From: Octopus sinensis
Taxonomy: Eukaryota
DNA: 64,000 bases
NCBI RefSeq assembly: GCF_006345805.1
Contig: NC_043001.1
Span: forward strand, 23,746,001-23,810,000
Reading direction: 5' to 3'
Of the stretch, positions 5,778 through 55,740 are shown piece after piece. The first letter of the stretch is position 1; each line of letters opens with the position of its first letter. The translations under genes and the position numbers were made by a program. Below the pieces are notes generated by a model. The model saw nothing but the letters and a program-made list of their open reading frames with translations. It was not told the DNA's origin and made no database searches.

Positions 5778-6091
5778 TTTCGTTTTGGGATTTGGTTTGC
5801 AAGATTCTTTATATGAGTTCGTGTGTTGAAGCATATTCTGTTGTGTCTGTGGAGAGTCATTTTCTTTTTGTGCCTTATAATATAACGCACCCACCGGTAA
5901 AATTTCCGCTTATTTCCTATTTTTATTTTCCTAAAATTTTCGTTGCGTCTTGCAAACTATTGAAAAGGTTGTAAGACGCAACGAAAATTTTAGGAAAATA
6001 AAAATAACAAATAAGTGGAAATTTTACCGGTGGGTGTGTTATATTATAAGGCACAAAAAGAAAATGACTCTCTCCAGACACAACAGAATAT
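5778..6091. mobile_element. Fold-back non-coding element with degenerate hammerhead-like motif (Penelope-like pLTR/retrozyme-like)
   Basis: Arms 5833-5955 and 5969-6091; same family as 39210-40060. Confidence 0.7.
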
Positions 6092-6996
6092 ACAGTAATT
6101 AATATTCAGCAATTAACTTAGTAGTTGAACAATCACCAACTTCTATAGAGTCCACGAAAAATTCAGTGATTTTAACTTTAAATCTGTTGGTGTCACTTTT
6201 GATCCTTGGCTGCAGAAACGAAGATTAAATTAAACGACTTCGGTGAAATTTAGATTAAATAAAACGACTTTGATGAGCGTAAATTGAGTAACGTATTGCA
6301 AATACTGCGCAAGTTCTAACTTGTCAAGAATTTACAAGACTTCATTTTCAATGAAACTACCGAGCCATTGGCGTAAATCTTCGTCTATCTGTTATCTTAG
6401 TTTATCATCAGGTATTAGTTTTTAAAACTGGCAGATTAACTTCTACAATGCTCTCATCTCTGCCGGCATCGTTCATCAAACAACTCATCTATCGCGTTTC
6501 GCGCCGAATGGACGAGGGCCGTTTTCGCTGCTACCAAACCGCATGCAATGCTTTTTCTATGCACCTTCTCTGATCACTTGACTTGCTTCACCTCACCAAA
6601 CACCACTGCTCTCTATAGCCACTTCCTTCCTCAAGTTATCGGATACTGTTCTAATTGCTATTGAAAATACTGTTCTCCAGTCGGTCAATTTTTTTTTATA
6701 TTTCGTGGAACATTTCGTTGTGGTGGAACCCTCACTAATTCTCTTTAATTGATACGCTACTTCAACCCCTGGATTTTTTTTGTTTTGTAAATTTCTGAAA
6801 CCGGGTTTTTGTCTACTGGTTTTATCTAAGTTAGCTGCTGTGTTAAGTTGTTGTTATGGTTATAGTAGTCGGAGGAAATTGTAGCAGCGGTAATATCCTT
6901 CATTCGTCTCCTCCCCACGTTAGGTAGAAAATCCCGACGTGATCTGGTTTTGTGCAAATGCGACATTTAAATTTCCTGCTCTCGAAAAAAAAAATA

Positions 6997-7478
6997 CCTG
7001 TTTCTTTATTACCCGCAAGGGGTTAAACATAGAAGGGACAAACAAGGACAGACAAACGGATTAAGTCGATTATATCGACCCCAGTGTGTAACTGGTACTT
7101 ATTTAATCGACCCCGAAAGGATGAAAGGCGATGTCGACCTCGGCGAAATTTGAACCCGGAACGTAACGGCAAACGAAACACAACTAAGCATTTCACTCGG
7201 TGTGCTAACGTTTCTGCCAAATCGCCGCCTTAATAAATAAATAAAATACCTATTTCTTTATTACCCACAAGGGGCTAAACACAGAGGGGACAAACAAGGA
7301 CAGACATAGGTATTAAGTCGATTACATCGACCCCAGTGCGTAACTGCTACTTAATTTATCGACCCCGAAAGGATGAAAGGCAAAGTCGACCTCGGCGGAT
7401 TTTGAACTCACAACGTAACGCAGACGAAATACCGCTAAGCATTTCGCCCGGCGTGCTAATGTTTCTGCCAGCTCGCCT
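6997..7478 (-). mobile_element. Two adjacent complete SINE family A copies
   Basis: 6997-7230 and 7249-7478, each with its own head. Confidence 0.85.
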
Positions 7479-7949
7479 AAATAAAATACCGCAAAGCATT
7501 TTCTCCGGCATTCTAACATTCTGTGCCAATCCAGTAACAACTACAGCAACGACAACGACGACGATGATGATGACGGCATCAATGATGATGATGATAACAA
7601 GTGAAGCAGAATTCAGAGCACCATGACCAGCTTCAACTGCAGAAGACTTGTGGTGGTCAAGTTTATACATTGGGAAGCACCCAAAGCCGACGTAGAATGG
7701 AAACGTGGACCGAGTAAAGACCTAGCGGTGAATTAAGGTGAATAAAGACCTAGCGGTGAATTAAGAGCTCTGGACTGAAAACAGACACGGAAGGCCTGAT
7801 AATGTCTTTCTATACGGTTTTCGCTTGTTCTGATTCCGTTTTCTGTTCGTCAATTTTCTGTAGGCGTTCTATGGTTTGGTTTTGCTGTTTTCGTTACTTT
7901 ACTTTTCGCGTGTTTGATCTTTCTTGGTGGTTTATGTTCTCAATGTCAA

Positions 7950-8330
7950 TTTACTCTTTTACCCTTTTACTCGTTTCAGTCGTTTTGACTGCGACCATGC
8001 TGGAGCACCGCCTTTAGTCGAGCAAATCGACTCCAGGACTTATTCTTTTGTAAGCTTAGTACTTATTCTATCGGTCTCTTTTGCCGAGGGGACGTAAATA
8101 CACCAGCATCGGTTGTCAAGCGATGTTGGGGAGGACACAGACACAAACATATACACACACATACCTACACACACACACACACGACGAGCTTCTTTTAGTT
8201 TCCGTCTATCAAATTCACTCACAAGGCTTTGGTCGCCCGAGACTATAGTCAAAGACACTTGCCCAAGGTGCCACGCCGTGGGACTGAACCTGGAACCATG
8301 TGGTTGGTAAGCAAGCTACTTACCACACAG
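7950..8330 (-). mobile_element. tRNA-derived SINE family C (CORE-like central motif, CR1-type tail)
   Basis: Minus strand head ctgtgtggtaagtagcttgcttaccaaccacatggttccagg, ggcaccttgggcaagtg, tail ggcggtgctccagcatgg...ctgaaac plus (AAAAGAGT)-like repeats. Confidence 0.8.
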
Positions 8331-8880
8331 ATACTCTTAATTTAAAAAAAATATTTTTGTCATTGTTTGCTTTTGCCCGTTTTTTTAAAAAATATAAATA
8401 TATTTTCGTTGTGTATCCTGTTTTCACGTCTATTGATAACTGTTTTTTGAGAATGTGTATTCTTAAACGAGCCAGTCTGTTGGTATCCAACGTTACATTA
8501 GATCAATGTTATTACGTATCCAAATTTCACACGAGAATACTGTTGTAGCTTTGTTTTGAAGGGAGAACATGCCCATAAAATATACATGTAGATTAGAATC
8601 GTATTCCTTTCGTGTCTTTATACTTTTGCTGTTTTACTAGTGAGAGAAAAGAATAAAAACTAACTCTTTAGAAAAAGCAAAATTTTCGTCGGGTGTCTGT
8701 TCGTTTGTTTATACCGTAATCAATTTTGCACTCTCCATTTTCACACTTTCTATGCATTTAATCTAAAGTACATTTCCTCCTTTTAACCTTGGACTGAATA
8801 ATATAATTTTTCATTTGTATTTGTTTTATTGTTTGTTATTTTTATGATATTTTATATCTTGTCACAGGCACCATGGGATA

Positions 8881-9274
8881 TCTTTATATATAAAAGTAAG
8901 GTTGTGTGTCTGTCTACTCCGATTTAGATTCCTAACTACTCCCACATTTTGCGGTGCAGTTTAACCAAAACCGGGTATCTTATAGTCGTGATTCATATCG
9001 AGCCCTTCTGGGTATTAGCGCGCGTCTACGATGAGTCTACGATTTAAAAAATAATTTACCATCATTTTTTTCCATCTTAATGCATATTTTTTAAATATAA
9101 GGGAAGTAACTCTCTAAAAATGTCTACGATGAGTCAACGATTTAAAAAAAAATTTACCACCATATTTTTTCCACTTTTAATGCATTTTTTTTCTATTTTT
9201 TGGCTATAACTCTCTAAAAATGCTTTATAGTTATTTCCCTTACAAACCCGAGCAACGCCGGGCGATACTGCTAG
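8881..9274 (+). mobile_element. Non-autonomous Helitron
   Basis: 5' TC after A; subterminal hairpin cccgagcaacgccggg; 3' CTAG followed by T; no TSD. Confidence 0.8.
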
Positions 9275-9829
9275 TCTCTTATAAAGTCTCTCTCTCTCTC
9301 CCAATAGATATGACCATCTCGCTATAAATAATTCCCCATTCTTAAGTGTTTTTCATATTCTCATTCCTCTTTGTCTGTGTTGTTCTAGTTTGTTTCTCCG
9401 TCTTCTGTAAGAGTTCTATGTTTTGGTTTTACCATTGTGCTTTATCATTTATCCGTCTGGTGTTCGTATGATTCACGCTTCATTAATTCGTCTACATGTA
9501 GTAAATTCAGAACATGCAGAGGTTGGAAAAGAAACGATTTATCATATTGTGTCTTATTGCCAAGTCTTAATCAAGGAATAGCACATCTAGGAATGACGGG
9601 ACGGGATCTTTCATACGCTGGAAATTATACAAACATTACAACAACATCAAACAGCAAGATGATAGATACACTAGAAAGTGTATTATAGAATGACTAATTA
9701 CTCAGAAGTTGTAACACATTACTTCAGTCAGTCAGTCAATCAAGAGACGGAGAGAGAGAGAGAAGGATGAAGGAAGACAGAAGGGAAAGGAGTAGTGAGA
9801 TAAACAGATAGATAAAGGGATATAAGGGC

Positions 9830-10062
9830 GGGGCGGCGAGCTGGCAGAAACGATAGCACGCCGGGCGAAATGCGTAGCCGTATTTCGTCTGCCGTTACGT
9901 TCTGAGTTCAAATTCCGCCGAGGTCGACTTTGCCTTTCATCCTTTTGGGGTCGATAAATTAAGTACCAGTTACGCACTGGGGTCGATGTAGTTGACTTAA
10001 TCCATTTGTCTGTCCTTGTTTCTCCTCTCTGTGTTTAGCCCCTTGTGGATAGTAAAGAAATA
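9830..10062 (+). mobile_element. SINE family A monomer
   Basis: Homology to other copies. Confidence 0.85.
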
Positions 10063-10065
10063 GGT

Positions 10066-10745
10066 ATCTCTTCTGACTCTTCTGGATGGTCTCCTTGTTT
10101 AAGTTGGTGAATGCTGCCATAATCCTTGCCTTCAGTTCATCTTTGGCGTTATATGGAGTTGTTGGTATCTCGCTCAACTGCGCCCCACACATAACCAACG
10201 CGGTTGCAGTGGCTAAATGCTAAGGGTGATGTGGTCGTAAAAATTGTCTGACCGCTATGACTGGGGTCTCCTGCTCGTGTGGCATAGTGCAGAGTCCTGT
10301 TGCCAGACATAGTGTCTTCCAGCAGCCACCCTCTTCACCCAAGGCAGCACTACACCGCCAGGTACTTGATGTAGGCCTCCGTGTTGAGTGTGAGGCTATA
10401 TGGGAAGACGAATAGAGGCATAACGTCGCCATCATTAGTGACCACTCCAAACACCATGATGTTGACTGGATGTTTGATTTTTATCACTCTCGGTACATGT
10501 CCTCAGATTGACACCTAAACACTCTGAAATGTTCGTATTGTAGGTTCTGGCGTGAATGCCAAGCAGTACAGCATGTTGTTTCCAAATTTCTGGCCGAGTG
10601 AATTGCGTCATGTTGCTGTTTTTATCACAGACGGTGCCCAACTGACCCCACTATACTGCGTAGTCGACAGAATCAAAAACAAACAATGCGTATGCACGAA
10701 ATTAATAGCAATATAAAATGGTGACAATTTACCCGTCGCACCGTG
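10066..10745 (-). mobile_element. Degenerate Tc1/mariner (maT/DD37D-like) element with transposase remnant
   Basis: Frameshifted minus-strand segments IKHPVNIMVFGVVTNDGDVMP, RVAAGRHYVWQQDSALCHTS, DELKARIMAAFTNLNKE; terminal tacacggtgcgacgggtaaattgtcacc. Confidence 0.7.
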
Positions 10746-11055
10746 TACAGACGCACACGCACACACACACACACACACACACGCACAAACACACACATTT
10801 ATATGCATGTATATGTGTTTGAATACAAATTTTGTCTTTCTTCCTCCCTCTCTCTGTGTCTATCTAGCCATACATATATAAGGATGGTTGTGGTGCTGTT
10901 GTTGTTGTTGTTGGTGGTGGAGAGAATGAGAGAGAGAGAGAAAGACAAATATCAACCGGATATAGTTGTCAAGGACTATCAGGAAATGCCATTTCTTCAA
11001 ATCGAAGTATTAGTCTCAGTAGAGGGTGATGCAACTTCAAAAGAAATTGGATATA

Positions 11056-11123
11056 ATATACATATATATACATACATACATACATACATACATACATACA
11101 TACACACATACATACATACATAC

Positions 11124-11155
<32 letters not shown>

Positions 11156-11571
11156 GTATATATATATGTATATATATATGTATATATTTGTATATATGTA
11201 TGTATATATATTTGTATATATGTATGTATATATATTTGTATATATGTATGTATATATTTGTATATATGTATATGTATATATATGCATATATATGTATATA
11301 TATATATATATATGTATACATATATATATGTATACATATATATATATGTATATGTATATATATATGTATATATGTATGTATATATATTTGTATATATGTA
11401 TGTATATATATTTGTATATATGTATGTATATATATGCATATATATATGTATATATATATGTATATAATATGTATATATATATATATATGTATGTATATAT
11501 ATTTGTATATATGTATGTATATATATTTGTATATATGTATGTATATATATGCATATATATGTATATATATG

Positions 11572-11633
<62 letters not shown>

Positions 11634-11660
11634 ATCTATATATATTATATATATATTATA

Positions 11661-11707
<47 letters not shown>

Positions 11708-11826
11708 ATGTATATATATGTATATATATATATTATGTATATATATGTATATATATATATATGTATATATATGTATATATTATATGTATATATGTATGTA
11801 TATATATATATATATTATGTATGTAT
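11056..11826. repeat. ~770-bp compound (TA)/(TACA)/(TATG) microsatellite with higher-order units
   Basis: Direct reading; recurring tatatatttgtatatatgtatg units. Confidence 0.95.
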
Positions 11827-12034
11827 AAATATCTGGAAGTAGAGAAAATCAGAATGTGACGATTGAAAACAGAAACAGTTTTCATTGTAATTAATAGATG
11901 CACCGGGAAAGATTAAAAGAGAAGTAGACAAATGCATGACCCAAATCACTGGACTTTCACATATACTTAACATTTAGCACTGGACACATATTACGTAGAA
12001 AACATTCCGATATAATTTACATTTATGAATGTGT

Positions 12035-12394
12035 GTTGCAAGATTCCTGATGTGAAACCGTGTCTTGAAACAGATATTGTTGTATCTCGGGACGGTCATT
12101 TTTCTTTTGCCAAATAAACACACGCACTGTATATTCGTTCTTCATTCGTTTATTACTCTTCTCATTTTATATTATGTCCATTGTCTGAAAATCTTTCGTC
12201 ACACGTCTGTGACCTCTTCAGGATACACGTGGATGGAAAGGTTCGCTGAAGAGGTCACAGATGTGCGGCGAAAGATTTCCAGACAATGGACAAGAGTTAA
12301 AATAAGAAAAGTAATAAACGAGTGAAGAACGAATATTTAGTGCGTGTGTTTATTTGGCAAAAAGTAAAAAAAATGACCGTCCCGAAATATAACA
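12035..12394. mobile_element. Fold-back non-coding element, both arms starting at a hammerhead-like core
   Basis: Arms 12078-12221 and 12246-12394. Left arm on the minus strand reads CTGAAGA-G-GTCACA-gacg-TGTGAC-GAAA-GATTTTC. Confidence 0.75.
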
Positions 12395-12616
12395 GATCGA
12401 ATGCGTACAGAGCTATGTATGATTGTCCAGTGAAAGTACGTAATAAAAAAGACTTCTAAAATAATCATCTTTTCTACTATCTTTTCAATTAGGGGTTAGT
12501 CGATTACCTCGACCCCAGTGCTCTACTAGTACTTATTTCATCGACCCCGAAAGGATGAAAGACAAAGTCGACCTCGGCAGAGTTTCAATTCAAAACGTAA
12601 AGATGCTGCTAAGCAT

Positions 12617-13142
12617 TCTTCTTCTTCTTCTTCTTCTTCTCTTTCTTCTCCTCCTCCTCCTTCTTCCTCTCTTTCTTCTTCTTCTTCTTCTTCTTCTTCT
12701 TCTTCTCCTCCTCTTTCTCCTCCTTCTTCTTCTCTTTCTTCTCCTCCTCCTTCTTCTTCTCTTTCTTCTTCTTCTTCTTCTTCTTCTTCTTCTTCTCTCT
12801 TTCTTCTTCTTCTTCTTCTTCTTCTTCTTCTCTTTCTTCTCCTTCTCCTCCTCCTCCTTCTTCTTCTCCTCTTTCTCCTCCTCCTCCTTATTCTTCTCTT
12901 TCTTCTCCTCCTCCTTCTCCTTCTCTTTCTTCTTCTTCTTCTTCTTCTCCTCCTCCTCCTCCACCTCCTCCACCACCTCCTCCTTCGCCTCCTCCTCCTC
13001 CTTCTTCTTCTTCTCCTCTTTCTCCTCCTCCTCCTTATTCTTCTCTTTCTTCTCCTCCTCCTCCTCCTCCTCCTCCTCCGCCTCCTCCTCCTTCTTCTTC
13101 TTCTTCTTCTTCTTCTTCTTCTTCTTCTTCTTCTTCTTCTTC
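12617..13142. repeat. (CTT)n/(CCT)n polypyrimidine tract
   Basis: ~525 bp almost purely C/T on the + strand. Confidence 0.95.
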
Positions 13143-13299
13143 TAATACTAGTAATAACAACAACGACAATAACAACAACAACAACAATATCAATGTGTAA
13201 TAATGATTTCTTTTAGAATAGCAGCAATTTTTAACACAGATACAAGACCACGCTTCTTTGGGTACGTTTCATGTGATGGAAACTATGGTTACATTGTGG

Positions 13300-13710
13300 A
13301 ATATAGCCGGTTCCTGGCAGCTCTACCTTGAAAACACGCTCGTAAAATTTACTGTTTTCCACTGTAGTACTTCCAGACCAAAAGACTTCTAAATAGTTCG
13401 GACTCGGAAAGACTACTCGAACGTTTCTTGACAAACTCCGAAGTTGTTCCCAAATATCGTCATCCATACCTTCCACCAAACCTCTATAAAATGCAAGTGT
13501 TGATGTTCCACCGATCACATTGCCTAGCTTGTGGAATTTCAGATGCCAAATACTCTAACTCGGGCTGCACTTGTTCCAGGACTGCAATTGGGTACCTCCC
13601 CCCCAAAAAAATGACAGGCGGCTCACCGTCGTCGTTCTTGTATCTGTGAAGATGTCGTAGCACCAGCAAATGCAGGTAGTCCGGCAATTAGGGCACCTTG
13701 AAACCTTCTG
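13300..13710 (-). pseudogene. Degenerate, internally deleted L1/Tx1-type LINE ORF2 fragment
   Basis: [16 protein letters not shown] aligns with [17 protein letters not shown] at ~58130. Confidence 0.6.
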
Positions 13711-13737
13711 GAGTAGTTGGTAAGTGATGGATCTTCT

Positions 13738-13987
13738 GTGGAGGTGCGTGGCTTAGTGGTTAGGGTGTCAGCATCATGATCGTAAGATTGTGGTTTCGTT
13801 TCCTGGACCGGGCTACGCGTTGTGCTCTTGAGCAAAACACTTCATTTCACTTTGCTCCAGTCCACTCAGCTGGCAAAAATGAGTAACGCTGCGATGAACT
13901 GGCGTTCCGTCCAGCTGGGGAACACATACGCCATAGAAACCGGGAAACCGGACCCATGAGCCTGGCTAGGCTTTAAAAGGGCGCATT
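13738..13987 (+). mobile_element. tRNA-derived SINE family D
   Basis: Head gtggcttagtggttagggtg...gtttcgtttcc, body cttgagcaaaacacttcatttcac...ccagtccactcagctgg; relatives at 21190-21310, 43620-44390 and 50160-50365. Confidence 0.75.
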
Positions 13988-13996
13988 TATTTTGTG

Positions 13997-14290
13997 TAGA
14001 GGCACATGGCCTAGTGGTTAGAGCAGCGGACTCGCGGTCGAGGGATCGCGGGTTCGAATCTCAGACCGGGCGATGTGTGTGTATATGAGCGAAACACCTA
14101 AGCACCACGCGGATCCGGCAGAAGGTAATGGCGAACTTCTGATGACTATTTCGCCACAACTTTCTCTCACTCTTTCCTCCTGCATCTTGCAGCTCACCTG
14201 CGACGGACCGGCGTTCTATCCAGGTGGGGAATCTATACTCCAAGGAAACCGGGAAACCGGACCTTATGAGCCAGGCATGGCTCGAGAAGG
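13997..14290 (+). mobile_element. SINE with family B head/body and family D-like tail
   Basis: Head ggcctagtggttagagcagcggactcgcgg...ggttcgaatc; tail ggaaaccgggaaaccgg; second copy at 30713-31000. Confidence 0.75.
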
Positions 14291-14892
14291 ATTGATCTTC
14301 TGATCAGCGTAACTTGTACCTTTTAAAAGAAGCGAGAGAGCATACATCCGAATTTTTTCAAACTGTCAAATGGCAGCGAAACTCTGAATTTATGTAGGTG
14401 TTAGTCACTTCCATTCGAACGTTTAGAAACAGCTTCCATCCATTCTATTTCTGAGTGAGACTAACCATCCTGCTTTTCTTCATTTGGACGTTTGAACGTC
14501 AAGAACTTTAAGCGGGTCGAATTCTCAACGATGGAAACTACTGACACTCACGGACTTGCTTCTCCAGGAGCTGAACATCAGGTCCACCGATTTGTCCTTT
14601 GTTAATGCGTTCTTCTAACCACCGATATCCCTCTAGTTTGTTACCGATAAAAAGAGCTCTATACCATGACGGTCATCTCGTCCAAGTGATTCAGACACGG
14701 TCCTCCTGGGTTCCCTTCCGAATGAGAAACCCCACAACATCTGCAGCCTACGCAGCAACGGCTCATATACAGAAAAAAAATAAGACAGGGCGGTGGATTG
14801 GCAGAATCGTTAGAGAGTCGAGTGAGATACCTTGTGGTGTTTGTTTTGAGTCTTTTGACGGTTAAATTGAATGAGTCAACTAGTTTGATATA

Positions 14893-15376
14893 TATTTCTT
14901 TACTACCCACAAGGGGCTAAACACAGAGGGGACAAACAAGGACAGATAAACGGATTAAGTCGATTACATCGACCCCAGTGCGTAACTGGTACTTAATTTA
15001 TCGACCCCGAAAGGATGAAAGGCAAAGTCGACCTCGGCGGAATTTGAACCCAGAACGTAACGGCAGACGAAATATGGCTATGTATTTCGCCCGGCGTGCT
15101 AACTTTTCTGCCAGCTCGCCACCTTTGATATAATCCTCTGATATATATTTCTTTACTACCCACAAGGGGCTAAACATAGAAGGGACAAACAAGGACAGAC
15201 AAAGGGATTAAATCGACTACATCGACCCAGTGCGTAACTGGTACTCTATTTATCGACCCCGAGAGGATGTAAGGCAAAGTCGACCTCAGCGGAATTTGAA
15301 CTCAGAACGTAACGACAGACGAAATACCGCTAAGCATTTCACCCGGCGCGCTAACGTTTCTGCCAGCTCGCCGCCT
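14893..15376 (-). mobile_element. Two complete SINE family A copies at one site with reiterated flank
   Basis: Flank (t)ttgatataatcctctgat recurs between and after the copies. Confidence 0.85.
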
Positions 15377-15924
15377 TTGATATAATCCTCTGATATAATC
15401 CAGTTTGATATAATCCTCTGATCACTGCGTGGGTGGGTGGTACTTAGCGGAATTCATTCTATTGTAAATATTCAGACCACGTCTCCTGGCTGAGGATAAC
15501 TTTCTCCCTTCCTCCTACAAATCTTGGAGGTCCTGCACCCCACTCTAAAAGAAAAGCTACCCTGCAAAACAAAACAACTCCTCGCCTCCCCAAAACGGGT
15601 ACATGAGCGCTGACCTCCACTCTTCATGAAAACAGTAAAAAATAATTCGATAATTTACATGTATATTTACATTCTGTTCAGATTCGTCCATTCTCATCTC
15701 TTAATCTGTTCGTTTCTTCATCTGTTCATCTATTTATTTGCAAGCAGGTGTAGGCGTTGTTTTTCTTTAACACTAAGTCAGGCGTGACGAAGCGAATCCA
15801 TAATGAAAGGGTTGATAGATTTATCGAACTAATCTTCTTGTTTTTTCAGTCATAGTATATTTGATGTTACATTATCTAATCTTGCCTTGTGCCAAAATTT
15901 GAAACTAATGTTACATTATCAAAT

Positions 15925-16285
15925 AAGGCGGCGAGCTGGCAGAAACGTTAGCACGCCGGGCGAAATGCTTAGCAGTATTCGTCTGTCGCTACGTTCTGAG
16001 TTCAATTCCCCGAGGTCGACTTTGCTTTCATCCTTTCGAGGTCGATTAATAAGTACCAGTACGCACTGGGTTGATATAATCGACTTAATCCGTTTGTCTG
16101 TCCTTGTTTGTCCCCTCTGTGTTTAGCCCCTTGTGGGTAGTAAAAAAATAGGTATTTTGTCTGTCCTTACGTTCTGAGTTCAAGTTCCGCCGAGGTTGGT
16201 TTTTGCCTTTCATCTTTTTGTGGTGGATAATCGACTTATCTCCTCTTCCAAAATTGCTGGCCTTGTGCCAAAATTTAAAACCACT
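15925..16285 (+). mobile_element. SINE family A head plus a second headless unit with an alternative tail
   Basis: Junction aaataggtattttgtctg; ends in ggccttgtgccaaaattt. Confidence 0.75.
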
Positions 16286-17689: not shown

Positions 17690-18105
17690 CTTTCTTTATT
17701 ACCCACAAGGGCCTAAACATAGAGGGGACAAACAAGGACAGACAAACGGATTAAGTCGATTACATCGATCCCAGTGCGTAACTGGTACTTAATTTATCGA
17801 CCCCGAAAGGATGAAAGGCAAAGTCGACCTCGGCGGAATTTGAACTTAGAACGTAGCGGCAGATGAAATATCTACTTCTTTACTACTCACAATGGGATAA
17901 AGACAGAGAGGACAAACAAGGACAGACAAACGGATTAAGTCGATTATATCGATGTCAATGCGTAACTGGTACTTAATTTATCGACCCCGAAAGGATGAAA
18001 GGCAAAGTCGACCTCGGCGGAATTTGAACTCAGAACGTAACGGCAGACGAAACACAACTAAGCATTTCACCCGGCGTGCTAACGAATCTGCCAGCTCGCC
18101 GTCCT
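17690..18105 (-). mobile_element. SINE family A dimer (one head)
   Basis: Two ~180-bp units; imperfect TSD tgtc(c)acttcata(t/c)acc. Confidence 0.85.
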
Positions 18106-18249: not shown

Positions 18250-18279
<30 letters not shown>

Positions 18280-18281
<2 letters not shown>

Positions 18282-21723: not shown

Positions 21724-22107
21724 TGGAGGCTCAGTTGCTTAGTGGTTAGGGCAGTGGACTCGCGGTCTTAGGATCGCGGTTTCGATTCCCAGACCGGGCG
21801 TTGTGAGTGTTTATTGAGCAAAAACGCCTAAAGCTCCACGAGGTTCTGGCAGGGGTTGGTGGTGAACCTTGCTGTACTCTTTCACCTCAACTTTCTCTCA
21901 CTCTTTCTTCCTGTTTCTGTTGTACCTGTATTTCAAAGGGCCAGCCTTGTCACACTCTGTGTCTCGCTGAATCTCCCTGAGAACTACGTTAAGGGTACAC
22001 GTGTCTGTGGAGTGCTCAGCCACTTACACGTTAATTTCACGAGCAGGCTGTTCCGTTGATCGGATCAACTGGAACACTCGTCGTCGTAACCGACGGAGTG
22101 CCAGCAA
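21724..22107 (+). mobile_element. SINE family B
   Basis: Homologous to 4339-4727 and 52600-52987; followed by (CTAT)n. Confidence 0.9.
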
Positions 22108-26119: not shown

Positions 26120-26529
26120 CGGCGAGCTGGCAGACACGTTAGCACGCCAGGCGAAATGCGTAGCCGTATTTCGTCTGTCATTACATTCTGAGTTCAAATT
26201 CCGCCGAGGTCAACTTTGCCTTTCATCCTTTCGGGGTCGATAAATTAAGTACCAGTTACGCACTGGGGTCGATATAGTCGACTTAATACCTCTGTCTGTC
26301 CTTGTTTGTCCCCTCTATGTTTAGCCCCTTGTGGGTAATAAAGAATTAGGTATTTCGTCTGTCGTTACGTTCTGAGTTCAAATTCCGCCGAGGTCGACTT
26401 TGCCTTTCATCCTTTCGGGGTAGATAAATAAAGTACCAGTTTCGCACTGGCGTCGATGTAATCGACTTAATCCCTATGTCTGTCCTTGTTTGTCCCTTCT
26501 ATGTTTATCCCCTTGTGGGTAATAAAGAA

Positions 26530-38917: not shown

Positions 38918-39209
38918 GAACAACAGAGAACGTTTCCGTCTACCAAATTCTCTCACAAGGCATGAGTCAGCTCAAGGACTTGAGGAAAAGAAGAGAATAC
39001 ACTTGGCACACAGTGCCACACAGTGGGACTGAAACCACAGAGCTGCGAAGCGAACTTCTTAACTATCTCACCATACCATACCATGTTCTAAATATCTATT
39101 ATTTGACTGTTTACCTTTGAATGACTACAAGACTTTTGAGATTAAAGAGTGATTTAAACAGTGACTAAACACCATAACACCATACCCATACAACACATAA
39201 TTCTATTTT

Positions 39210-40060
39210 TCGTTTTTGGATTTGATTTGCAAGATTCTTTATATAAGTTCGTGTGTTGAAGCATATTCTGTTGTGTCTGGGGAGAGTCATTTTTTTTTGT
39301 GTGCCTTATAATGTAACACACTCACCGGTAAAATTTCCACTTATCAAGGCGTCGAGCTGGCAGAATCGTTAGTACACCGGACGAAATGCTTAGCGGTATT
39401 TCGTCTGTCGCTACGTTCTGAGTTCAAATTCCGCCGAGGTCGACTTTGCCTTTCATCCTTTCGGGGTCGATTAAATAAGTACCAGTTACGCACTGGGGTC
39501 GATGTAATCGACTTAATACCTATGTCTGTCCTTGTTTGTCCCTTCTATGTTTAGCCCCTTGTGGGTAGTAAAGAAATAGGTATTTCGTCTGCCGCTACGT
39601 TCTTGAGTTCAAATTCTGCCGAGGTCGACTTTACCTTTCATCCTTTCGGGGTCGATAAATTAAGTACCAGTTACGCACTGGGGTCGATGTAATCGACTTA
39701 ATACCTATGTCTGTCCTTGTTTGTCCCTTCTATGTTTAGCCCCTTGTGGGTAATAAAGAAATGGGTATTTCGTCTGTCGCTACGTTCTGAGTTCAAATTC
39801 CGCCGAGGTCGACTTTGCCTTTCATCCTTTCGGGGTCGATTAAATAAGTACCAGTTACGCACTGGGGTCGATATAATCGACTTAATCCGTTTGTCCTTGT
39901 TTGTCCCTTCTGTGTTTAGCCCCTTTTGGGTAGTAAAGAAATAGGTAAAATTTCCACTTATTTCCTATTTTTATTTTCCTAAAATTTTCGTTGCGTCTTG
40001 CAACCTTTTCAGTAGTCTTGACTCCATAAGGCACAAAAAGAAAATGACTCTCCCCAGACA
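39210..40060 (-). mobile_element. Hammerhead-like element (5778-6091 family) interrupted by a SINE A trimer
   Basis: Same sequence as 5778-5955; minus strand ctaCTGAAAAggttgcaagacgcaacGAAAattttag; short inverted piece at 40026-40060. Confidence 0.7.
39345..39943 (+). mobile_element. SINE family A trimer with a single 18-bp TSD
   Basis: TSD ggtaaaatttccacttat at 39327-39344 and 39944-39961. Confidence 0.9.
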
Positions 40061-40403
40061 TAATTCTATTGTTCATTGAATTCTAGTGCGTATTTCACGT
40101 GCACTTTTGTCACACGAGCGTCACGTGTATTTGCCAATAAATACACGAGATTCTACCTCGTAAAACACCTTCAGCTGAATAAATTGGAGTTGATTAATAT
40201 ATTGCAGTCGTGTTCCTCCTTGTCTGGAGGGGTTGGTATCGGGGAGCGGATGGGAGATTTCATGACAGAATTACTGGATTGTGAAAGATTTACTGATTCC
40301 AGAAAGATGTAACGACAATTGCGTTGTGTGAATGGACCACAGTAATTGTAAAATTTCTCCTATGTTATTTGTTATTACATATTCAATGTCAAAAATTTGA
40401 CAT

Positions 40404-43586: not shown

Positions 43587-43619
43587 CTGAAAGTAGAAAG
43601 GTTAGTGGTCAATATTAAT

Positions 43620-47300: not shown

Positions 47301-47588
47301 AAGCGATTTTACTTCCCAACGTCTTAAGAAAAATTTTATTGTCACAGATTTCTTTTTCACCTACTACAGGGTATAAGTTATTGTGATTAAATAAGGAAGT
47401 AGGCATAAACATAAGTTGATGCCTACCGGTGTGTTGTTAATAAACAGCTATGTTGTTGAGAAATTCGTTTCACAACCACATGACTGTGTCTGATCCTGCT
47501 GTGCAGAACCTTACAAAAGTGTCATTTGCTGGTAGACGGAAAGAAACTGTGGAAACTAGTCATGTATACATACATACATATATGTATA

Positions 47589-47673
<85 letters not shown>

Positions 47674-47727
47674 TGTATATATATACACATATATATATGT
47701 GTGTGTGTATATATATATATACACATA

Positions 47728-48837
47728 TGATTTTGATTTTGATTTTGATTTTGATTTTTCCAGTTTCAGCTAATGAGCTGTGGCCATGCTGGGGCACCGC
47801 CATTTGGTTTGCTACACGGGTTTACCTCACGGATGCTTTTTAGCAAACGCCATCTGATGCATGAGAGAGTTCGATGCAGCTGCCCTCATCTGCACCTCCT
47901 GCCGTGAAGTTGGTTCATCCGGGACACCTGACAGGAAGAGATCCAGTCCTACTTTAAAGACATCCGCATCTACACCATGCAGGTCCCTCAGGTTCTTCGG
48001 GTGGACATTGAAGAGCCGTGGGCCTCTGAAGCCCAGGCTATCACAATATCTTGTCCTACATCTTGATGGCAAATTTGGAGTCCTTGGTACTACGCAGTGG
48101 CGTCCGGTTCTGGCGTTTGTGTGACTCTCGATGCCAAAGTCTGGGACAAGACCTTCCAGGATCTTCCAGATATATATTATGGCATATCTTTCTCGCCTAC
48201 GCTCCAGGGAATAGAGCTTTAATCTCTTGAGTCTCTCCCAGTAGCTCGTATGCTGCACAGAGGCTATCTTCTTCGTGTAGCTTCGTTGGATCGCCTCAAG
48301 TTCTGTGATCAACTTGACACTGGATGGTGACCATAGCTGAGAGCAATAGTCAAAGTGGCTTAGGACAAGTGTCTTCCAGAGGACCATCATGGTTTCTTGT
48401 TCTCTTGTTCTAAAGGTTCTAAGAATCCATCCAGCCAGCCGTCTGCATTTCATTGTCAGTTTAGCAACATGTACATGAAAGGTCGCGTCATCACTCATGT
48501 GAATACCCAGGTCACGCACTGATTGTGCCTCTGGGATTGCAATCCCTCCGGGTCCAGTGTATTCATTGGGTATTGCATTCAGTTTTGCATGCTGATAGTA
48601 TAAAGCTTGAAACTTTTCAGCATTGAACTGCATGCTATTCTTTTCAGCCCACTTGTATATTTCGTCCAGCTCACATTGCAGGTGCTTAGTGTCTTCAGGG
48701 TTCTGTATTGCCTGTGAAACTTTTGTATCATCTGCATAACTTGTGATCGTGGCTCTCCGCGTGGCTGAGGGCATGTCTGAGAGGGCCATTATGAACAGCA
48801 GTGGTCCCAAAACAGTGCCCTGTGGAACACCGCTCAC
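47728..48837 (-). mobile_element. 5'-truncated CR1-type LINE
   Basis: RT C-terminal ORF, short 3' UTR and (AAATC)-type tail at 47728-47758; flanked by (TA)n. Confidence 0.9.
47827..48837 (-). CDS. CR1-type non-LTR reverse transcriptase, C-terminal part (open, 5'-truncated)
   Basis: [35 protein letters not shown]; 336 codons without a stop. Confidence 0.9.
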
Positions 48838-48936
48838 TATTTGCGTGCTAATATATATGCGTATATATATATATATGCATATATATATGTATATATATAT
48901 ATATTTTTATATGTATTTATATATATATATACATAT

Positions 48937-49016
<80 letters not shown>

Positions 49017-49614
49017 AAGACATACACACACAGATGCCTGTAGGTAATGTATCTTTGTATGTATGCATGCGTATAGCTTCCGTTGATGTTTATTGGAGAA
49101 GAATATAAACACGATGACAACATCGAAAAGTTTGTGTTTTCCGAACGAGGTCCCTTGCAATATTTGTTCTGCATTGAGTTATAGACACTCCCTTGTCACT
49201 CACATTCTCAGAAATGCAGTGTGTCAATGATTGGCTTGTTGGGAACCTGTAACCAACGACGCTATTATTCAGTAATTGTGATATAAAATATAAAAATGCA
49301 TATATAACAATTATTTCTTGAAATATACATTCTTAGATAGTCAATATTATCATGAGAACGGTGGTTTGGCAGAATCGTTCGTGCGTCGGACCAAATGCAT
49401 TGTGCTATTAGTTTCGAGCACTGTACGTTCGGCAATCAAATCTGATTTACACCGCCCCGGGGACGAGGAAATGAAGTGCTGTATTTTCTACTATTACTGA
49501 AATGGTTGATACTCATCGGATCAGGCATTCCCTATTCATTCGTCTCTCTTCTTCCAGTCACTCGTATTGTGTCCACCATCCGAGACATTGCATTAACCAA
49601 TACACAGCAGCTCT

Positions 49615-49792
49615 GTGGAGGCGCAATGGTCCAGTGGTAAGAGCAGTGAACTCGCGGTCCTAAGAATGCGGTTTCGATTCCCAGACCGGGCATTGTGAAT
49701 GTTTATTGAGCAAAAACACCTAAGCTCCACGTTGTGAACCCCGCTGTACTCTTTCACCACAACTTTCTCTCACTCTTTCTTCCTACTTCTGC
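49615..49792 (+). mobile_element. SINE family B, partial
   Basis: Head and start of body. Confidence 0.7.
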
Positions 49793-51130
49793 CACAAAAC
49801 AGAGGAACCATTGTGTAACCCACTATGGTGTGGTAAACTTTCAGACCCTAGTCTAGATTGCGAGACCTCTGTGCCCCAGAATGGTTCAGCTCTCCACCCG
49901 TTAAAAGCCACCGTTTACGGAATGAGGATAACAACGTAGCTTTCGCGCCTGTGCAACCACCAGTCTATCGCGTGTGGTGGGTGGGTCTTCAAGTTGCCAC
50001 ACGCATTCTTAGTAGCTTAGAGCAGGCTCAAATTAGAGATTATTCTTTGTGGCTAATAGCGTGAGTCCTGATTGGAAGAAGAAGAGAAGAAGACAGCAGC
50101 TCTTCTTCGTCAGAACGTAAGATTCTTCGGAATTCTTTCACGGTACGTATCTCCTTGAGTGGAGGCGCATAGCTTAGTGGTTAGGGTGTTGGCTTCACGA
50201 TCGCAAGATTGTAGTTTCGATTCCTTTACTGGATGATGCGTTGTGTTCTTGAGCAAAACATTTCATTTTACGCTGCTCCAGTTCGCCATTAAAAATGAGT
50301 AATTCCCATCCAGGGAGGAATATATACGTCAGAAAAACTGGGAAACCGCACCTATGCTCCTTACGGACTAACCTGGAGGAATCAACGTGTCTTTTCTATT
50401 GCAGTCGACTTGCATCTGTTCATGAAGAGTGCTAACCATATCGATCTCATCAGCCTCGGCGGCCTTGGGAAGGTCATGGGCTGATCCTCTCCTCCAGACA
50501 AAAACAATAAAAGAAATCAATCATTAAGTGAAATATTGGAACTATTAGAGTTCCTTTTGGATATTAGCAGCAAAGACTGAAATCAATTATTTTGGATTTA
50601 GTCATCGCCAAACGTATTACATTCTTAAATCGTTAATTGAAACGGAGATACAAAAATTCAGATTACGGAAGTTAGAACCGAATTAAAATATAATATATAA
50701 TATAATATAAGCTAGCGTCTTGTCATTACTGATACATAAAGCTTAAAGTGCATGAGAAATGATTATTGATCAGAGAAAAAAGAGTCGGATCGATAACATA
50801 TATCTGGAGGATGTTTGATTTTATTAGCACAAAAGAAAGAGTAGTGTGTTACAATAATGCAATTAATATATTTAGCAGTGAAACACTGCAATGCTGTATG
50901 TAGAAGAAATCTCGACAATCGTTAGAATTTCTCTTTCTCCAAGGCATAAAATTTATTTCACTGTTGGAAATATTGGTATTCTATAACACTTAGCAACGTA
51001 ATTTCAAATGAATAAAATATGATAAAAATTCATATAAAATAGTTGGACATGTTTAGTCTGTCTTTGTCAACTTCACCAACTAAGATTAGTAATGTTTTTC
51101 TTTCCGATTTGAGTCTTGTGCCTGTATATT

Positions 51131-51726
51131 TATTTCTTTATTACCCACGAGGGGCTAAACATTGAGAGGACAAACAAGGACAGACACACGGATTAAGTCG
51201 ATTACATCGACCCCAGTGCGCAACTGGTACTTAATTTATCGACCCCGAAAGGATGAAAGGCAAAGTCGACCCCGGCAGAATTTGAACTCAGAACGTAGAC
51301 GAAATACCTATTTCTTTACTACCCACAAGGGGCTAAACACAGAGGGGACAAACAGATTAAGTCGATTATATCTACCCCAGTGCATAACTGGTACTTATTT
51401 AATCAACCCCGAAAGAATGAAAGGCAAAATCGACCTTGGCGGAATTTGAACTCAGAACGTAGCGGCAGACGAAATACCTATTTCTTTATTACCAACAAGG
51501 GGCTAAACATAGATGGGACAAACAAGGACAGACATAGGTATTAAGTCGATTCCATCGACCCCAGTGCGTAACTGGTACTTAATTTATCGACCCCGAAAGG
51601 ATGAAAGGCAAAGTCGACCTCGGCGGAATTTGAACTCACAGCGTAACGACAGACTTCAAATTCCGCCGAAGTCGACTTTGCCTTTCATCCTTTCGGCGTG
51701 CTAACGATTCTGCCTGCTCGCTGCCT
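51131..51726 (-). mobile_element. SINE family A trimer containing an internal 42-bp inverted duplication
   Basis: Three units; arms 51593-51634 / 51655-51696. Confidence 0.85.
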
Positions 51727-51749
51727 TGTGGCTGCATATCAATTATATA

Positions 51750-52065
51750 ATTAAGCCCTTTGCCCCCTATACAGCGTAGGATATCGGCACTTATCTCTAC
51801 CGTTCTCGACAATGGGATGGCCTCTCCGCAGGTCTTGTTGGTTTTGAATTGTCATCGATATTTCTTTTAATTCTTTTTTAAAAAATATTATTTCTAGGTT
51901 GTGGCCTTGGATTTACGCAGACTTATTTTTACCTCTGGGAAGAGGTGCTCTATATTTAGTCTGGCCTTTATCATTTGACCTGCCCAACTTGGGAGGTCCT
52001 ACCTGGAGTTTGTGCTCCGCTTGCATAGCTTTCAGGGTCGTTGAGGCACACAAGTCACAACACTG
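51750..52065 (-). mobile_element. Non-autonomous RTE-derived element (5' UTR-like segment, degenerate)
   Basis: tttgacctgcccaacttgggaggtcctacc...gcatagctttcagggtc resembles the reverse complement of RTE 5' UTRs (from memory). Confidence 0.45.
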
Positions 52066-52164
52066 TAATCAGAACTGGATCTTGTGGTGGATATATATAT
52101 TAAAGATGCATAAATTACATAAAAAAATCATATGCTAACTCAGTTTTTATTGAGCTAGCATATA

Positions 52165-52396
52165 TATTTCTTTACTAACCAAAAGGGGCTAAACACAGAG
52201 GGGACAAACAAGGACAGACAAAGGGGTTAAGTCGATTATATCGACCGCAGTGCGTAACTGGTACTTAATTTATCGACGCCGAAAGGATGAAAGGCAAAGT
52301 CGACCTCGGCGGAATTTGAACTCAGAACGTAACGACAGACGAAATACAGCTACGCATTTCGCCCGGCGTGCTAACGATTCTGCCAGCTCGCCGCCT
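52165..52396 (-). mobile_element. SINE family A full-length monomer
   Basis: 14-bp TSD tgagctagcatata (52151-52164/52397-52410). Confidence 0.9.
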
Positions 52397-52599
52397 TGAG
52401 CTAGCATATAGACTTCAAATATTCATTACCATGCCAAAGGGCAGATCGCTCATTGTTTACCTCTGAGCTTCTTTAGGATTGTTTGTCTTCATCTAGAATA
52501 TTTTGAGAATAATCTTCCTTTAAAGTCCTCTGAGTTTATTGCGATATTCGCTGTTGTTATCGTTAATACTTTATTAATGCTATGGTATATTGTTTTAAT

Positions 52600-52987
52600 G
52601 TGGAGGTGCAATGGCCCAGTGGTTAGGGCAGCGGACTCGCGGTCATAGGATCGCGGTTTCGATTCCCAGACCGGGCGTTGTGAGTGTTGATTGAGCGGAA
52701 ACACCTAAAAGCTCCACGAGGCTCCGGCAGGGGATGGTGGTGATCCCTGCTGTACTCTTTCACCACAACTTTCTCTCACTCTTACTTCCTGTTTCTGTTG
52801 TACCTGTATTTCAAAGGGCCGGCCTTGTCACTCTCTGTGTCACGCTGAATATCCCCGAGAACTACGTTAAGGGTACACGTGTCTGTGGAGTGCTCAGCCA
52901 CCTACACGTTAATTTCACGAGCAGGCTGTTCCGTTGATTCGGATCAACCGGAACCCTCATCGTCGTAACCGACGGAGTGCTTCCACA
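52600..52987 (+). mobile_element. SINE family B full length
   Basis: 13-bp TSD atattgttttaat (52587-52599/52988-53000). Confidence 0.9.
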
Positions 52988-53378
52988 ATATTGTTTTAAT
53001 ATAAGGTGTTGCCGGTGATGAATAATTACAAACTGTTTCCTACGACTACGAAGAATTTGCATCACTAATGTCCGCTGGACTTCCTATCACATGATGAACA
53101 TGACTCACGTACCTTCTGACATTTCCATCATTTATTTGCAGTCAAACTGAACGACGTTGCTGGTTACAATTCGCCGCTTTTACTGAGCAGCTGTAAGGAT
53201 CCGTTTGTTGTTTTTGTGCCATTTAATGAGTTTATAATCATATTGCTCCTCATAACCCGATTTCTTGCAATAAAAATCCATCATTTCGTTTTTATTAAAT
53301 CTCTTTACATTCTTTTGTTTGTTAGTCATAGTTGGAATCGAACACGACCGTAGCTTGCTACTACATATCCGAATATAA

Positions 53379-53983
53379 GTACCTATTTCTTTATTACCCA
53401 CAAGGGGCTACACACAGAGGGGACAAACAAGGACATACATGGGTATTAAGTCGATTACATCGACCCCAGTGCGTAACTGGTACTTAATTTATCGACCGCG
53501 AAAGGATGAAAGGCAAAGTCGACCTCGGCGGAATTTGAACTCAGAACGTAGCGGCAGACGAAATACCTATTTCTTTACTACCCACAAGGGGCTAAACACA
53601 GAGAGGTCAAACAAGGACAGACAAACGGATTAAGTCGATTATATCGACTCCAGTGTGTAACTAGTACTTATTTAATTGACCCCGAAAGGATGAAAGGCAA
53701 AGTCGACCTCGGCGGAATTTGAACTCAGAACGTAGCGGCAGACGAAATACCTATCTATTTACTACCCACAAGGGGCTAAACACAGAGAGGACAAACAAAG
53801 ACAGACATAGGTATTAAGTCGATTACATCGACCCCAGTGCGTAACTGGTACTTTATTTATCGACCCCGAAAGGATGAAAGGCAAAGTCGACCTCGGCGGA
53901 ATTTGAACTCAGAACGTAACGGCAGATGAAATACGGCTACGCATTTCGCCCGGTATGCTAACGTTTCTGCCAGTTCGCCGCTT
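53379..53983 (-). mobile_element. SINE family A trimer
   Basis: One head, three units; TSD atatccgaatata. Confidence 0.9.
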
Positions 53984-54467
53984 TCTATATCCGAATATAT
54001 GTACCAGGAAATGAGATATTTTAAATCACAGACTGACAGCAGAACTACCTCTCATAAATGTAATTACACTGTTGCGGTGTGTATTATTTTTGTTTGCCGT
54101 TTATCTCTAGGTCAGTCCATTAAGTACAGAGAAGTTTATACTTTACTGAGGAAATATAACAAGATCAAATTACCCCTTGTAATTGCCGAAATAATTAATG
54201 CAATATTAATCATTGACTAATAACGTCTTTCTCCCAACTCACAATTATTATTAACTAATCTATTAATGTTCACTGCATTAGATATGGTGGTAACATTAAT
54301 CATTCTTTACTTTTCATGCAGATGAAGTCTCTGAGTAATTTCTCTTCGTAATTTATTCTCGGTAGTATTTGATGACTGACCTTCAAATACTTTTATTTAC
54401 ATATAATTAGCTTATTGTGTGCTATATCGAAAACCATAAATATTAGAGCATTATTATGCACACAATA

Positions 54468-55065
54468 CAAAGCGGCGAGCTGGCAGAATCGTTAGCACGC
54501 CGGGCGAAATGCGCAGCCGTATTTCGTCTGCCGTTACGTTCTGAGTTCAAATTCCGCCGAGGTCGACTTTGCCTTTCATCCTTTCGAGATCGATTAAATA
54601 AGTACCAGTTATGCACTGGGCCGATGTAATCGACTTAATCCCTTGTTTGTCCCCTCTATGTTTAGCCCCCTGTGATAAATAAAGTACTAGTTACGCACTG
54701 GGGTCGATGTAATCGACTTAATCCGTTTTACTGTCCTTATTTGTCCTCTCTGTGTTTAGCCCCTTGTGGGTAGTAAAGAAATAGGTATTTCGTCCGCCGC
54801 TGCGTTCTGAGTTTAAATTCCGCCGAGGTCAACTTTGCCTTTCATCCTTTCGGGGTCTATAAATTAAGTACCAGTTGTTCACTGGTGTCGATATAATCGA
54901 CTTAATCCGTTTGTCTGTCCTTATTTGTCCTCTCTGTGTTTAGCCCCTTGTGGGTAGTAATGAAATAGGCTTTTCGTCTGCCGCTACGTTCTGAGTTCAA
55001 ATTCCGCTGAGGTCGACTTTGCCTTTCATCCCCAAATTTCAGGCCTTGTGCCTATAGTAGAAAGG
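54468..55065 (+). mobile_element. SINE family A multimer with alternative terminal tail
   Basis: 18-bp flanking duplication attattatgcacacaata (54450-54467/55066-55083). Confidence 0.85.
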
Positions 55066-55529
55066 ATTATTATGCACACAATAATGTAGATACATGCAGT
55101 ATCACTTTATACACTCATTCACTCACTCACTCAGTTACTCACTCAGTTATTCAGTCAGTCACTCACCCACTCAGTCAGTCCGTCATTCACTCACTTAATC
55201 ACGCACTCACACACATATACATACACACATACATTCATACATACACGAAGTTAAAGAATTACAAAAGATAGCGTTATGTTACGTCGATTAAGATGTTCTG
55301 GAGAAATTCTATCGTCACGTCTTAATTATATTAAATAGATCAAAGACGTTGTTCTGGTAAAAGTGATATTTAACTCTGAAATTGGAGGATATGGATTGAA
55401 TATTTCCCGATGATATTAGTAGAGTCTGATTAAGCATTTTGTATACGAATTGCATTCAATTTTCAAATATGAAGGAAAAAAATATTTGCCAGAATTGTTC
55501 TAGAAAAAAAAATGTTACGTTTATATATT

Positions 55530-55740
55530 TCTTGTGCAATATTTTTTATGTGAAATCGTGTGTTGAAACATATATTGTTGTATTTAGGAATGGTCATTTT
55601 GCCAGTTTATCCAATAAAAACCCACGCACTATATATTTGGTGTTACTTTGCTTCAGCGTTATTTATTGTTTACATTAATCTTAATCTTGTTTCGGCCAGA
55701 GTTCTTTCATCACACTCCTGTGACCGCATCAGTGGTCCAT
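55530..55740 (-). mobile_element. Hammerhead-bearing short element (related to the 12035 and 5778 families)
   Basis: Minus strand ggaCCA-CTGATGC-g-GTCACA-ggag-TGTGAT-GAAA-GAAC-TC-TGGcc: stems I, II and minimal III present, one core variant (A9>C). Confidence 0.65.

What the first reader, a model, noticed from the sequence alone, without database searches (positions are those of the whole stretch)
5778..55740. Diversified family of ~200-bp non-coding elements carrying hammerhead-like ribozymes
Seen in sequence: four loci (5778-6091, 12035-12394, 39210-40060, 55530-55740) share the conserved end TGCAA(G/T)ATT...TG(A)...CGTGT(G/C)TTGAA(A/G)CA.AT..TGTTGT.T....GTCATT. About 100-150 bp away on the opposite strand each has a CTGA.GA/stem II/GAAA motif; the middles have diverged. 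Stem II is kept with different sequences (GTCACA/TGTGAC, GTCACA/TGTGAT, GTTGC/GCAAC). Established: Penelope-like elements and metazoan retrozymes carry minimal type-I hammerheads with palindromic stem III. Inference: this is a non-autonomous, ribozyme-processed retroelement group (PLE pLTR derivatives or retrozyme-like), possibly uncharacterised in this lineage. No RT or GIY-YIG ORF is visible here.
Basis: partly seen in the sequence, partly recalled or inferred. Interest (0 to 1): 0.75.

Follow-up and report, generated by a model that had tools for sequence, protein, structure and literature searches.

The report
Octopus Penelope stumps with eroding hammerheads
The four repeats are real, but they are the cut-short ends of three abundant protein-coding Penelope-like jumping genes of an octopus, a layout already described; their shared end is the start of the element's own gene, and the hammerhead motif beside it has drifted from the standard core in the youngest copies, so it likely cuts poorly or not at all (untested).

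Summary
The shared end is present at all four loci and a hammerhead-shaped motif lies about 100-135 nt from it, but the exact CTGA.GA core occurs at only 1 of 4 loci. The loci are 5'-truncated insertions of three subfamilies (A, B, C) of an autonomous Penelope-like element (PLE). Longer copies elsewhere in the genome run into an RT plus C-terminal GIY-YIG ORF, and complete pLTR-ORF-pLTR copies exist. The conserved end encodes the first 27 codons of that ORF. Copies stop at about +28 or +82 from the ATG; three loci carry an inverted short arm and two have 13-bp target duplications. All this is published PLE anatomy (PMC3846280, PMC8557442, PMC11167929, PMC4209133), so 'non-coding, non-autonomous, retrozyme-like' is not supported. 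Modestly new: subfamily A has the U3-A8 core; 95 of 100 listed subfamily C cores carry A9C, and its youngest branch adds C17U. The RT has a Nematis-type linker and about 70 extra residues in the fingers. This scan noted the same class before on other octopus DNA (18 findings). Cleavage is untested.

The parts
5765..5777 (.). Left target-site duplication of locus 1 (13 bp, repeated at 6089-6101; first 3 bases also fit the element)
   Evidence: sequence
5778..5956 (-). Locus 1, subfamily A long arm: 5'-truncated pLTR plus tail, cut inside stem II so no CUGA box; ATG at 5860, 27 codons to the end
5954..6091 (+). Locus 1 inverted short arm; hammerhead core 5960-5986 (U3-A8 variant, family norm apart from one G.U in stem II); ATG 6064, ends at +28
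12017..12221 (-). Locus 2, subfamily B long arm; canonical core 12194-12221 but truncated at C3 (no 5' strand of stem I) and with U at position 17; ATG at 12099
12220..12394 (+). Locus 2 inverted short arm; canonical core 12246-12273 with a mismatch in stem II; ATG at 12373; no clear target duplication
39208..40026 (-). Locus 3, subfamily A long arm (interrupted); ATG at 39290; core 39986-40012 with a C3.A8 mismatch; 13-bp target duplication at 39195-39207 and 40058-40070
39345..39943 (+). Later insertion into locus 3: three tandem ~184-bp units of another abundant repeat (recalled as an octopus SINE, not tested), with an 18-bp duplication 39327-39344 / 39944-39961
40026..40063 (+). Locus 3 inverted short arm (38 bp; ATG at 40044)
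55515..56163 (-). Locus 4, subfamily C copy: part of the 3' UTR (with the family's ATT run), pLTR and tail; core 55705-55732 with A9C and G10.1.U11.1; ATG at 55597; no inverted arm

Best explanation
The four loci are 5'-truncated insertions of three related subfamilies of an autonomous, endonuclease-bearing Penelope-like retrotransposon, and they likely arose when the element's reverse transcriptase started copying its RNA at fixed internal sites about 28 and 82 nt into its own ORF and stopped early. [quoted passage not shown] Inferred from the Anolis PLE work: the protein binds its RNA at the pLTR-ORF junction, the nuclease nicks both strands of AT-rich DNA, and priming from the two start sites gives a long arm with tail and an inverted short arm between target duplications. 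The end is conserved across subfamilies because it is coding and likely also the start signal. The hammerhead is the minimal type I motif known from PLE pLTRs; it would need a dimer or the element's protein to cut, and the window copies are likely inert.
For: Coding parents: family C protein query, 150 scored of 6004 candidates, all E<1e-100, stop-to-stop frames up to 914 aa; Pfam RVT_1 E 0.0004-0.002 and GIY-YIG E 0.003-0.006, both below the curated cut-offs; Atlas clusters with HTH_animal, GIY-YIG and RVT_1 at 0.97; model pLDDT 89, top PDB fold match telomerase, E 9e-9. B links to EN in 3 of 29 loci, A to RT/EN in 5 of 30. Of 30 loci holding the 5' part of the C ORF, 6 have the unit upstream in direct and 11 in inverted orientation, 13 none within 1.5 kb; 4 of 5 C regions fetched are pLTR-ORF-pLTR. 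The head peptide aligns from residue 3-8 with the N-termini of three distant homologues, E 1e-20 to 1e-28. In 30 position-ordered loci (29 insertions) none continues into the ORF body, 22 end at +81-83, and 18 of 29 have an inverted partner, 13 of 18 ending at +25-28. Published match: pLTR includes the first 12 aa and the tail extends it to 22 aa (PMC3846280); two RT start sites inside the ORF define the tail (PMC11167929); inverted truncated copies and one-sided tails (PMC8557442); min-HHR with an extra base before stem II, a U3-A8 variant and opposite-strand pairs (PMC4209133).
Against: No coding body lies in the window, so the link rests on family membership (84-95% identity to ORF-linked relatives). 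No full-length B or A parent was recovered, only RT/EN or EN parts. The tail (~54 nt) is longer than the 30-40 nt usually quoted. The blast queries end at +83 (A, C) and +65 (B), so long-end positions are capped by the query; the flanks carry that point. Locus 2 has no clear target duplication. Pfam hits are weak on their own.
Confidence: 0.94

Rival explanations
1. A non-autonomous, retrozyme-like family: short hammerhead units that self-cleave, circularise and are moved in trans by a PLE.
For: Thousands of short copies; many subfamily A copies begin within about 20 nt upstream of the core (a set selected for holding the core); animal retrozymes are reported to derive from PLE pLTRs (bioRxiv 10.64898/2026.07.22.740005).
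Against: No tandem arrays of the unit in the window; among 180 of 264 loci holding a stem II motif, adjacent pairs are 21 opposite-strand and 8 same-strand with spacings from 304 to 4554 nt, none repeated; 5' ends grade continuously into coding sequence; cores are minimal, not canonical.
Confidence: 0.04
2. The hammerhead match is chance or a dead relic with no constraint on structure.
For: No Rfam hammerhead hit among the listed matches; monomer folding z-scores only -2.0 to +0.35 and both stems I and II form in 2 of 8 sequences, neither from the window; pairs with a two-sided change 6 against 5.6 in shuffles, 277 of 500 as high; A9C is fixed in most C copies.
Against: 90% of 350 cells paired against 27-45% when partners are slid; two-sided changes at C3-G8 (to U-A), two stem II pairs and one stem I pair between subfamilies, though these are only about four independent events; the motif sits where PLE hammerheads are known to sit.
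Confidence: 0.1

Closest known systems
C-terminal EN+ Penelope-like elements: insertion units with pLTR, inverted 5'-truncated copy and one-sided tail (Arkhipova 2013 PMC3846280; Craig 2021 PMC8557442; Frangieh 2024 PMC11167929)
   Same: RT then GIY-YIG in one ORF; pLTR holds the start codon; two fixed 3' ends; inverted arms; variable target duplications; AT-rich or (TA)n targets; Asn-rich stretch in the ORF.
   Different: Tail about 54 nt against 30-40; hammerhead lies 100-130 nt upstream of the ATG, whereas in Anolis PAc it overlaps the start codon; 3' UTR about 430-570 nt or more with microsatellites.
[quoted passage not shown]
   Same: Short stem I (3-5 bp), extra base between positions 9 and 10.1, G10.1-C11.1, almost no stem III, U3-A8 variant (subfamily A), opposite-strand pairs 100-700 bp apart.
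   Different: Subfamily C mostly has C at position 9 and its youngest branch U at 17; its stem III loop is not palindromic; subfamily A has U at 17 on my register. These were not mentioned in the parts I read.
Nematis clade of PLEs (as aligned in Fig. S2 of PMC8557442)
   Same: Linker C-x4-C-x2-C-x7-C directly before the GIY motif, the spacing of Nematis_C4 and Nematis_Cr (compared by eye; 34 of 86 homologues have the same spacing); CCHH present.
   Different: RT3-to-RT4 spacing 131 aa (127-139 in 48 of 86 homologues measurable) against about 61 in Penelope and about 84 in a Naiad, counted by eye from Fig. S1; no tree with reference Nematis sequences could be built.
Non-LTR retrozymes of animals (Cervera and De la Pena 2020, PMC7229834)
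   Same: Type I hammerhead in a short, abundant, PLE-related repeat.
   Different: No tandem monomer arrays, coding parents exist, minimal rather than classical hammerhead, circular RNA not shown.

Membership tests
C-terminal EN+ Penelope-like elements | ORF with telomerase-like RT followed by GIY-YIG endonuclease | tested here: met
   (C); partial for A and B
C-terminal EN+ Penelope-like elements | CCHH motif with two cysteines between GIY and YIG | tested here: met
   translation shows C-x4-C between the two motifs and two downstream histidines; feature from PMC8557442
C-terminal EN+ Penelope-like elements | pLTRs from partial tandems, containing the start of the ORF | tested here: met
C-terminal EN+ Penelope-like elements | Inverted 5'-truncated copy and tail on one side only | tested here: met
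   3 of 4 window loci; 18 of 29 sampled insertions
C-terminal EN+ Penelope-like elements | RT phylogeny inside PLEs | not tested
   no named reference PLE proteins were available to the tools; fold search points to telomerase first
PLE minimal hammerhead | Core C3-A9 and G12-A15.1 with paired 3-8 | tested here: inconclusive
   met in B (23 of 29 CTGAAGA) and as U3-A8 in A (21 of 29); not met at position 9 in most of C (95 of 100 C9)
PLE minimal hammerhead | Stem II with extra 5' base, short stem I, palindromic mini stem III | tested here: met
   palindrome holds for A and B (with G.U), only partly for C
PLE minimal hammerhead | Self-cleavage at position 17 | not testable with these tools
   no raw RNA reads offered
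Nematis clade | Short CX2-5CxxC linker | tested here: met
Nematis clade | Placement in the RT tree | not tested
   references not available as usable sequences
Neptune clade | Long linker (about 25 aa between CxxC and the next C) | tested here: not met
   7 aa here against the Neptune rows
Hydra clade | CCHH absent, CxCX5C linker | tested here: not met
   CCHH present, different linker; Hydra-1_Obim has another N-terminus and hammerhead
Naiad clade | N-terminal endonuclease, no hammerhead | tested here: not met
   EN is C-terminal
Non-LTR retrozymes | Tandem arrays of 170-400 nt hammerhead monomers with no coding parent | tested here: not met
Non-LTR retrozymes | Abundant linear and circular RNA | not testable with these tools
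   no RNA holder on record

The most novel reading that the evidence does not exclude
Subfamily C records a natural, stepwise loss of hammerhead catalysis in a PLE lineage that kept amplifying: canonical A9/C17 copies are the most diverged, A9C copies younger, A9C plus C17U copies youngest, and all nine long-ORF loci carry A9C. If the mutant cores do not cut, ribozyme cleavage is dispensable for PLE spread in vivo, which is an open question. The same elements belong to a widespread group of C-terminal EN+ PLEs with a telomerase-length insert in the RT fingers, which the published scheme gives only to N-terminal EN+ PLEs.
Probability: 0.35. Interest if true: 0.5.

Novelty: new member of a known kind. 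Interest (0 to 1): 0.22.

Why it matters
As found, it is repeat annotation: three octopus PLE subfamilies with thousands of stumps, which explains the fold-back repeats and warns against calling them retrozymes or microRNA hairpins. The useful residue is a ready series of natural hammerhead variants (canonical, U3-A8, A9C, A9C+C17U) from one lineage with near-intact ORFs, which would allow a direct test of whether PLE ribozymes need to cut, and a longer tail for mapping the two RT start sites in a second clade.

Tried and rejected
Rfam scan: only microRNA-type hairpin matches below gathering score, caused by the inverted arms and microsatellites; no hammerhead among 150 of 202 listed. PDB sequence search of the ORF: one irrelevant hit at E 0.096. 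Pfam on the 181-aa EN piece alone: no family. Sequencing runs: no RNA holder listed, 20 of 23 rows hold part of the stretch, contigs only; four were laid and cannot show strand, ends, expression or cleavage, so they are not used. Target-duplication survey on 13 inverted rows was inconclusive because of (TA)n flanks. The variant count in the second half returned nothing because my pattern was mis-sized; I use instead. Neptune was my first clade guess and was dropped on linker length. Two paper searches for the effect of A9C or C17U gave no usable paper (0 hits; 69: 5 listings, not read), so those effects are recalled. In one search the subfamily A rows are one column out of register for stems I and III.
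Full report
1. Observation. The four loci exist and share the quoted end. They fall into three subfamilies: A (loci 1 and 3, 93% alike), B (locus 2) and C (locus 4), 73-80% alike over the shared 74-103 nt. The element reads on the minus strand, so the shared end is its 3' end and the hammerhead-like motif lies upstream. Loci 1-3 are fold-backs: a long arm and an inverted shorter arm that lacks about 54 nt or more of the end. Loci 1 and 3 have 13-bp target duplications. Five cores lie in the window; only the two at locus 2 read CTGA.GA. Rfam lists no hammerhead among 150 of 202 matches shown.

2. Abundance. First-look candidates in the 2.72-Gb genome: 3207 (B), 1566 (A), 2459 (C), 40 scored each, not copy numbers. 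Exact patterns: 5915 matches to the shared end, 2309 to the C core, 2073 to the A core, each with 0 for the reversed control. The host is an octopus: the C protein is 97% identical to a predicted Octopus vulgaris protein.

3. Parents. Walking upstream in C copies reached a GIY-YIG-like frame. As a query it gave 150 scored matches of 6004 candidates with open frames up to 914 aa. Nine long loci show RT motifs, a zinc-finger linker and the nuclease, followed by the unit. Pfam gives RVT_1 and GIY-YIG weakly, below cut-off; the Atlas returns PLE-type clusters; the model (pLDDT 89) matches telomerase first. B copies link to an EN 57-61% identical to that of C in 3 of 29 loci, A copies to RT/EN about 52% identical in 5 of 30. 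Of 30 loci with the 5' part of the C ORF, 6 have the unit upstream in direct orientation and 11 inverted; 4 of 5 regions fetched are pLTR-ORF-pLTR. The window holds no coding body.

4. The shared end is coding. From an ATG at 5860, 12099, 39290 and 55597 it reads MTLHRHNRICFNTR, MTVPRYNNICFKTR, MTLPRHNRICFNTR and MTIPKYNNICFNTR, 27 codons to the end. Between subfamilies, third positions carry 8 of 16, 9 of 16 and 4 of 8 differences, suggestive only. In a natural tandem the frame continues for 220 aa and aligns with the N-termini of distant homologues. In 30 position-ordered loci none continues into the body, 22 end at +81-83, and 18 of 29 insertions have an inverted partner, 13 of them ending at +25-28. 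(TA)n follows the end in 8 of 30 A and 15 of 30 C loci.

5. The hammerhead. B is canonical (CTGAAGA in 23 of 29; C17 in 25 of 29), A has U3-A8 (21 of 29 by pattern; A8 in 98 of 100), C has C9 in 95 of 100 listed matches. On 30 distinct rows 90% of 350 cells pair, against 27-45% for slid partners, with two-sided changes at 3-8, two stem II pairs and one stem I pair; these are about four events, and the count of such pairs does not beat shuffles (277 of 500). Monomer folding is weak, as expected for minimal motifs. Window copies: 5960 is near the A norm; 40012 has C3.A8; 12221 lacks stem I; 12246 has stem mismatches; 55732 has A9C and a wobble at 10.1-11.1. Within C, mean pairwise difference is 6.4% for A9/C17 (n=9), 4.6% for C9/C17 (n=54) and 2.7% for C9/U17 (n=29) among 96 of 101 pooled copies, a biased pool; in the position-ordered sample it is 3.6% (n=15) against 1.7% (n=11), 4 of 30 left out. 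A9 in A and B and C17 in B make A9/C17 the likely ancestral state. All nine long-ORF loci have C9, five also U17. That these changes impair cutting is recalled knowledge; my searches found no source.

6. Mechanism. Shown: anatomy, coding parents, two fixed ends. Inferred from the Anolis element (PMC11167929, parts 1-2 of 4 read): internal initiation at two sites in the ORF start gives the tail; the hammerhead there cuts only with protein present and is not needed for insertion in vitro. I commit to target-primed insertion with two internal start sites and early termination; the window copies are likely inert.

7. Comparison. [quoted passage not shown] PMC8557442 (passages, introduction, supplement searches and part 54): same insertion layout; its octopus entries found by my searches are two Naiads and Hydra-1_Obim, not this family. 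PMC4209133 (parts 1-2 of 4): minimal hammerheads, U3-A8. PMC7229834 (abstract) and bioRxiv 10.64898/2026.07.22.740005 (part 1 of 5): retrozymes are tandem arrays, not seen here. PMC13282606 (passages): 31 recently active Penelope-like families in O. vulgaris, no mention of ribozymes in the main text; its supplements were not seen and may list these families. A search for octopus, Penelope and hammerhead gave 4 listed papers, none on this family by title or opening. Linker spacing is Nematis-like; the RT3-RT4 span is 131 aa, about 70 longer than canonical PLEs by my count from Fig. S1, conserved in 48 of 86 homologues measurable and confidently modelled as helical; a search on this gave 4 listings and no further description. 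Clade is not settled.

8. Verdict. Real feature, known kind: new members of C-terminal EN+ PLEs with minimal hammerheads. The scan's earlier notes reached the same class 18 times in at least 4 genomes; none lies near this window. Interest 0.22; the erosion series and the fingers insert are the leads worth keeping.

Noticed in passing
L130:4070-6466 and P0002-P0086: RT3-to-RT4 spacing of 127-139 aa in this C-terminal EN+ group, in the range of telomerases and about twice that of canonical PLEs in Fig. S1 of PMC8557442; homologues at 27-54% identity come mostly from unnamed contigs, two from a sea cucumber.
   Followed up: partly
window 39345-39943 and about 25 other places (e.g. 17692-18052, 26166-26529, 53380-53934): A ~184-bp repeat, often in tandem dimers or trimers; recalled as an octopus tRNA-derived SINE. 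One trimer inserted into locus 3 with an 18-bp duplication, so it moved after subfamily A.
   Followed up: no
subfamily A loci L032-L060: About two thirds of copies holding the core start within roughly 20 nt upstream of it, at a small inverted repeat; possible truncation hot spot, sample biased by the query.
   Followed up: no
L189, L175, L129: The full C ORF is about 1300 codons from the pLTR ATG and includes a long Asn/Ser-rich low-complexity stretch before the RT.
   Followed up: partly
window 47830-48906 (-): 359-aa open frame with LINE-type RT motifs (GVPQG, YADD), unrelated to the PLE.
   Followed up: no
window 58183-58713 (+): 177-aa frame with a CxxC-x7-H-x4-C zinc knuckle, resembling the C-terminus of an L1/Tx1-type LINE (recalled).
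   Followed up: no
window 60804-61286 (-): 161-aa frame resembling the N-terminal part of a Helitron Rep/helicase (recalled).
   Followed up: no
window 4343-4726, 21724-22060, 52708-52985: Another dispersed repeat, 92-97% alike between copies.
   Followed up: no
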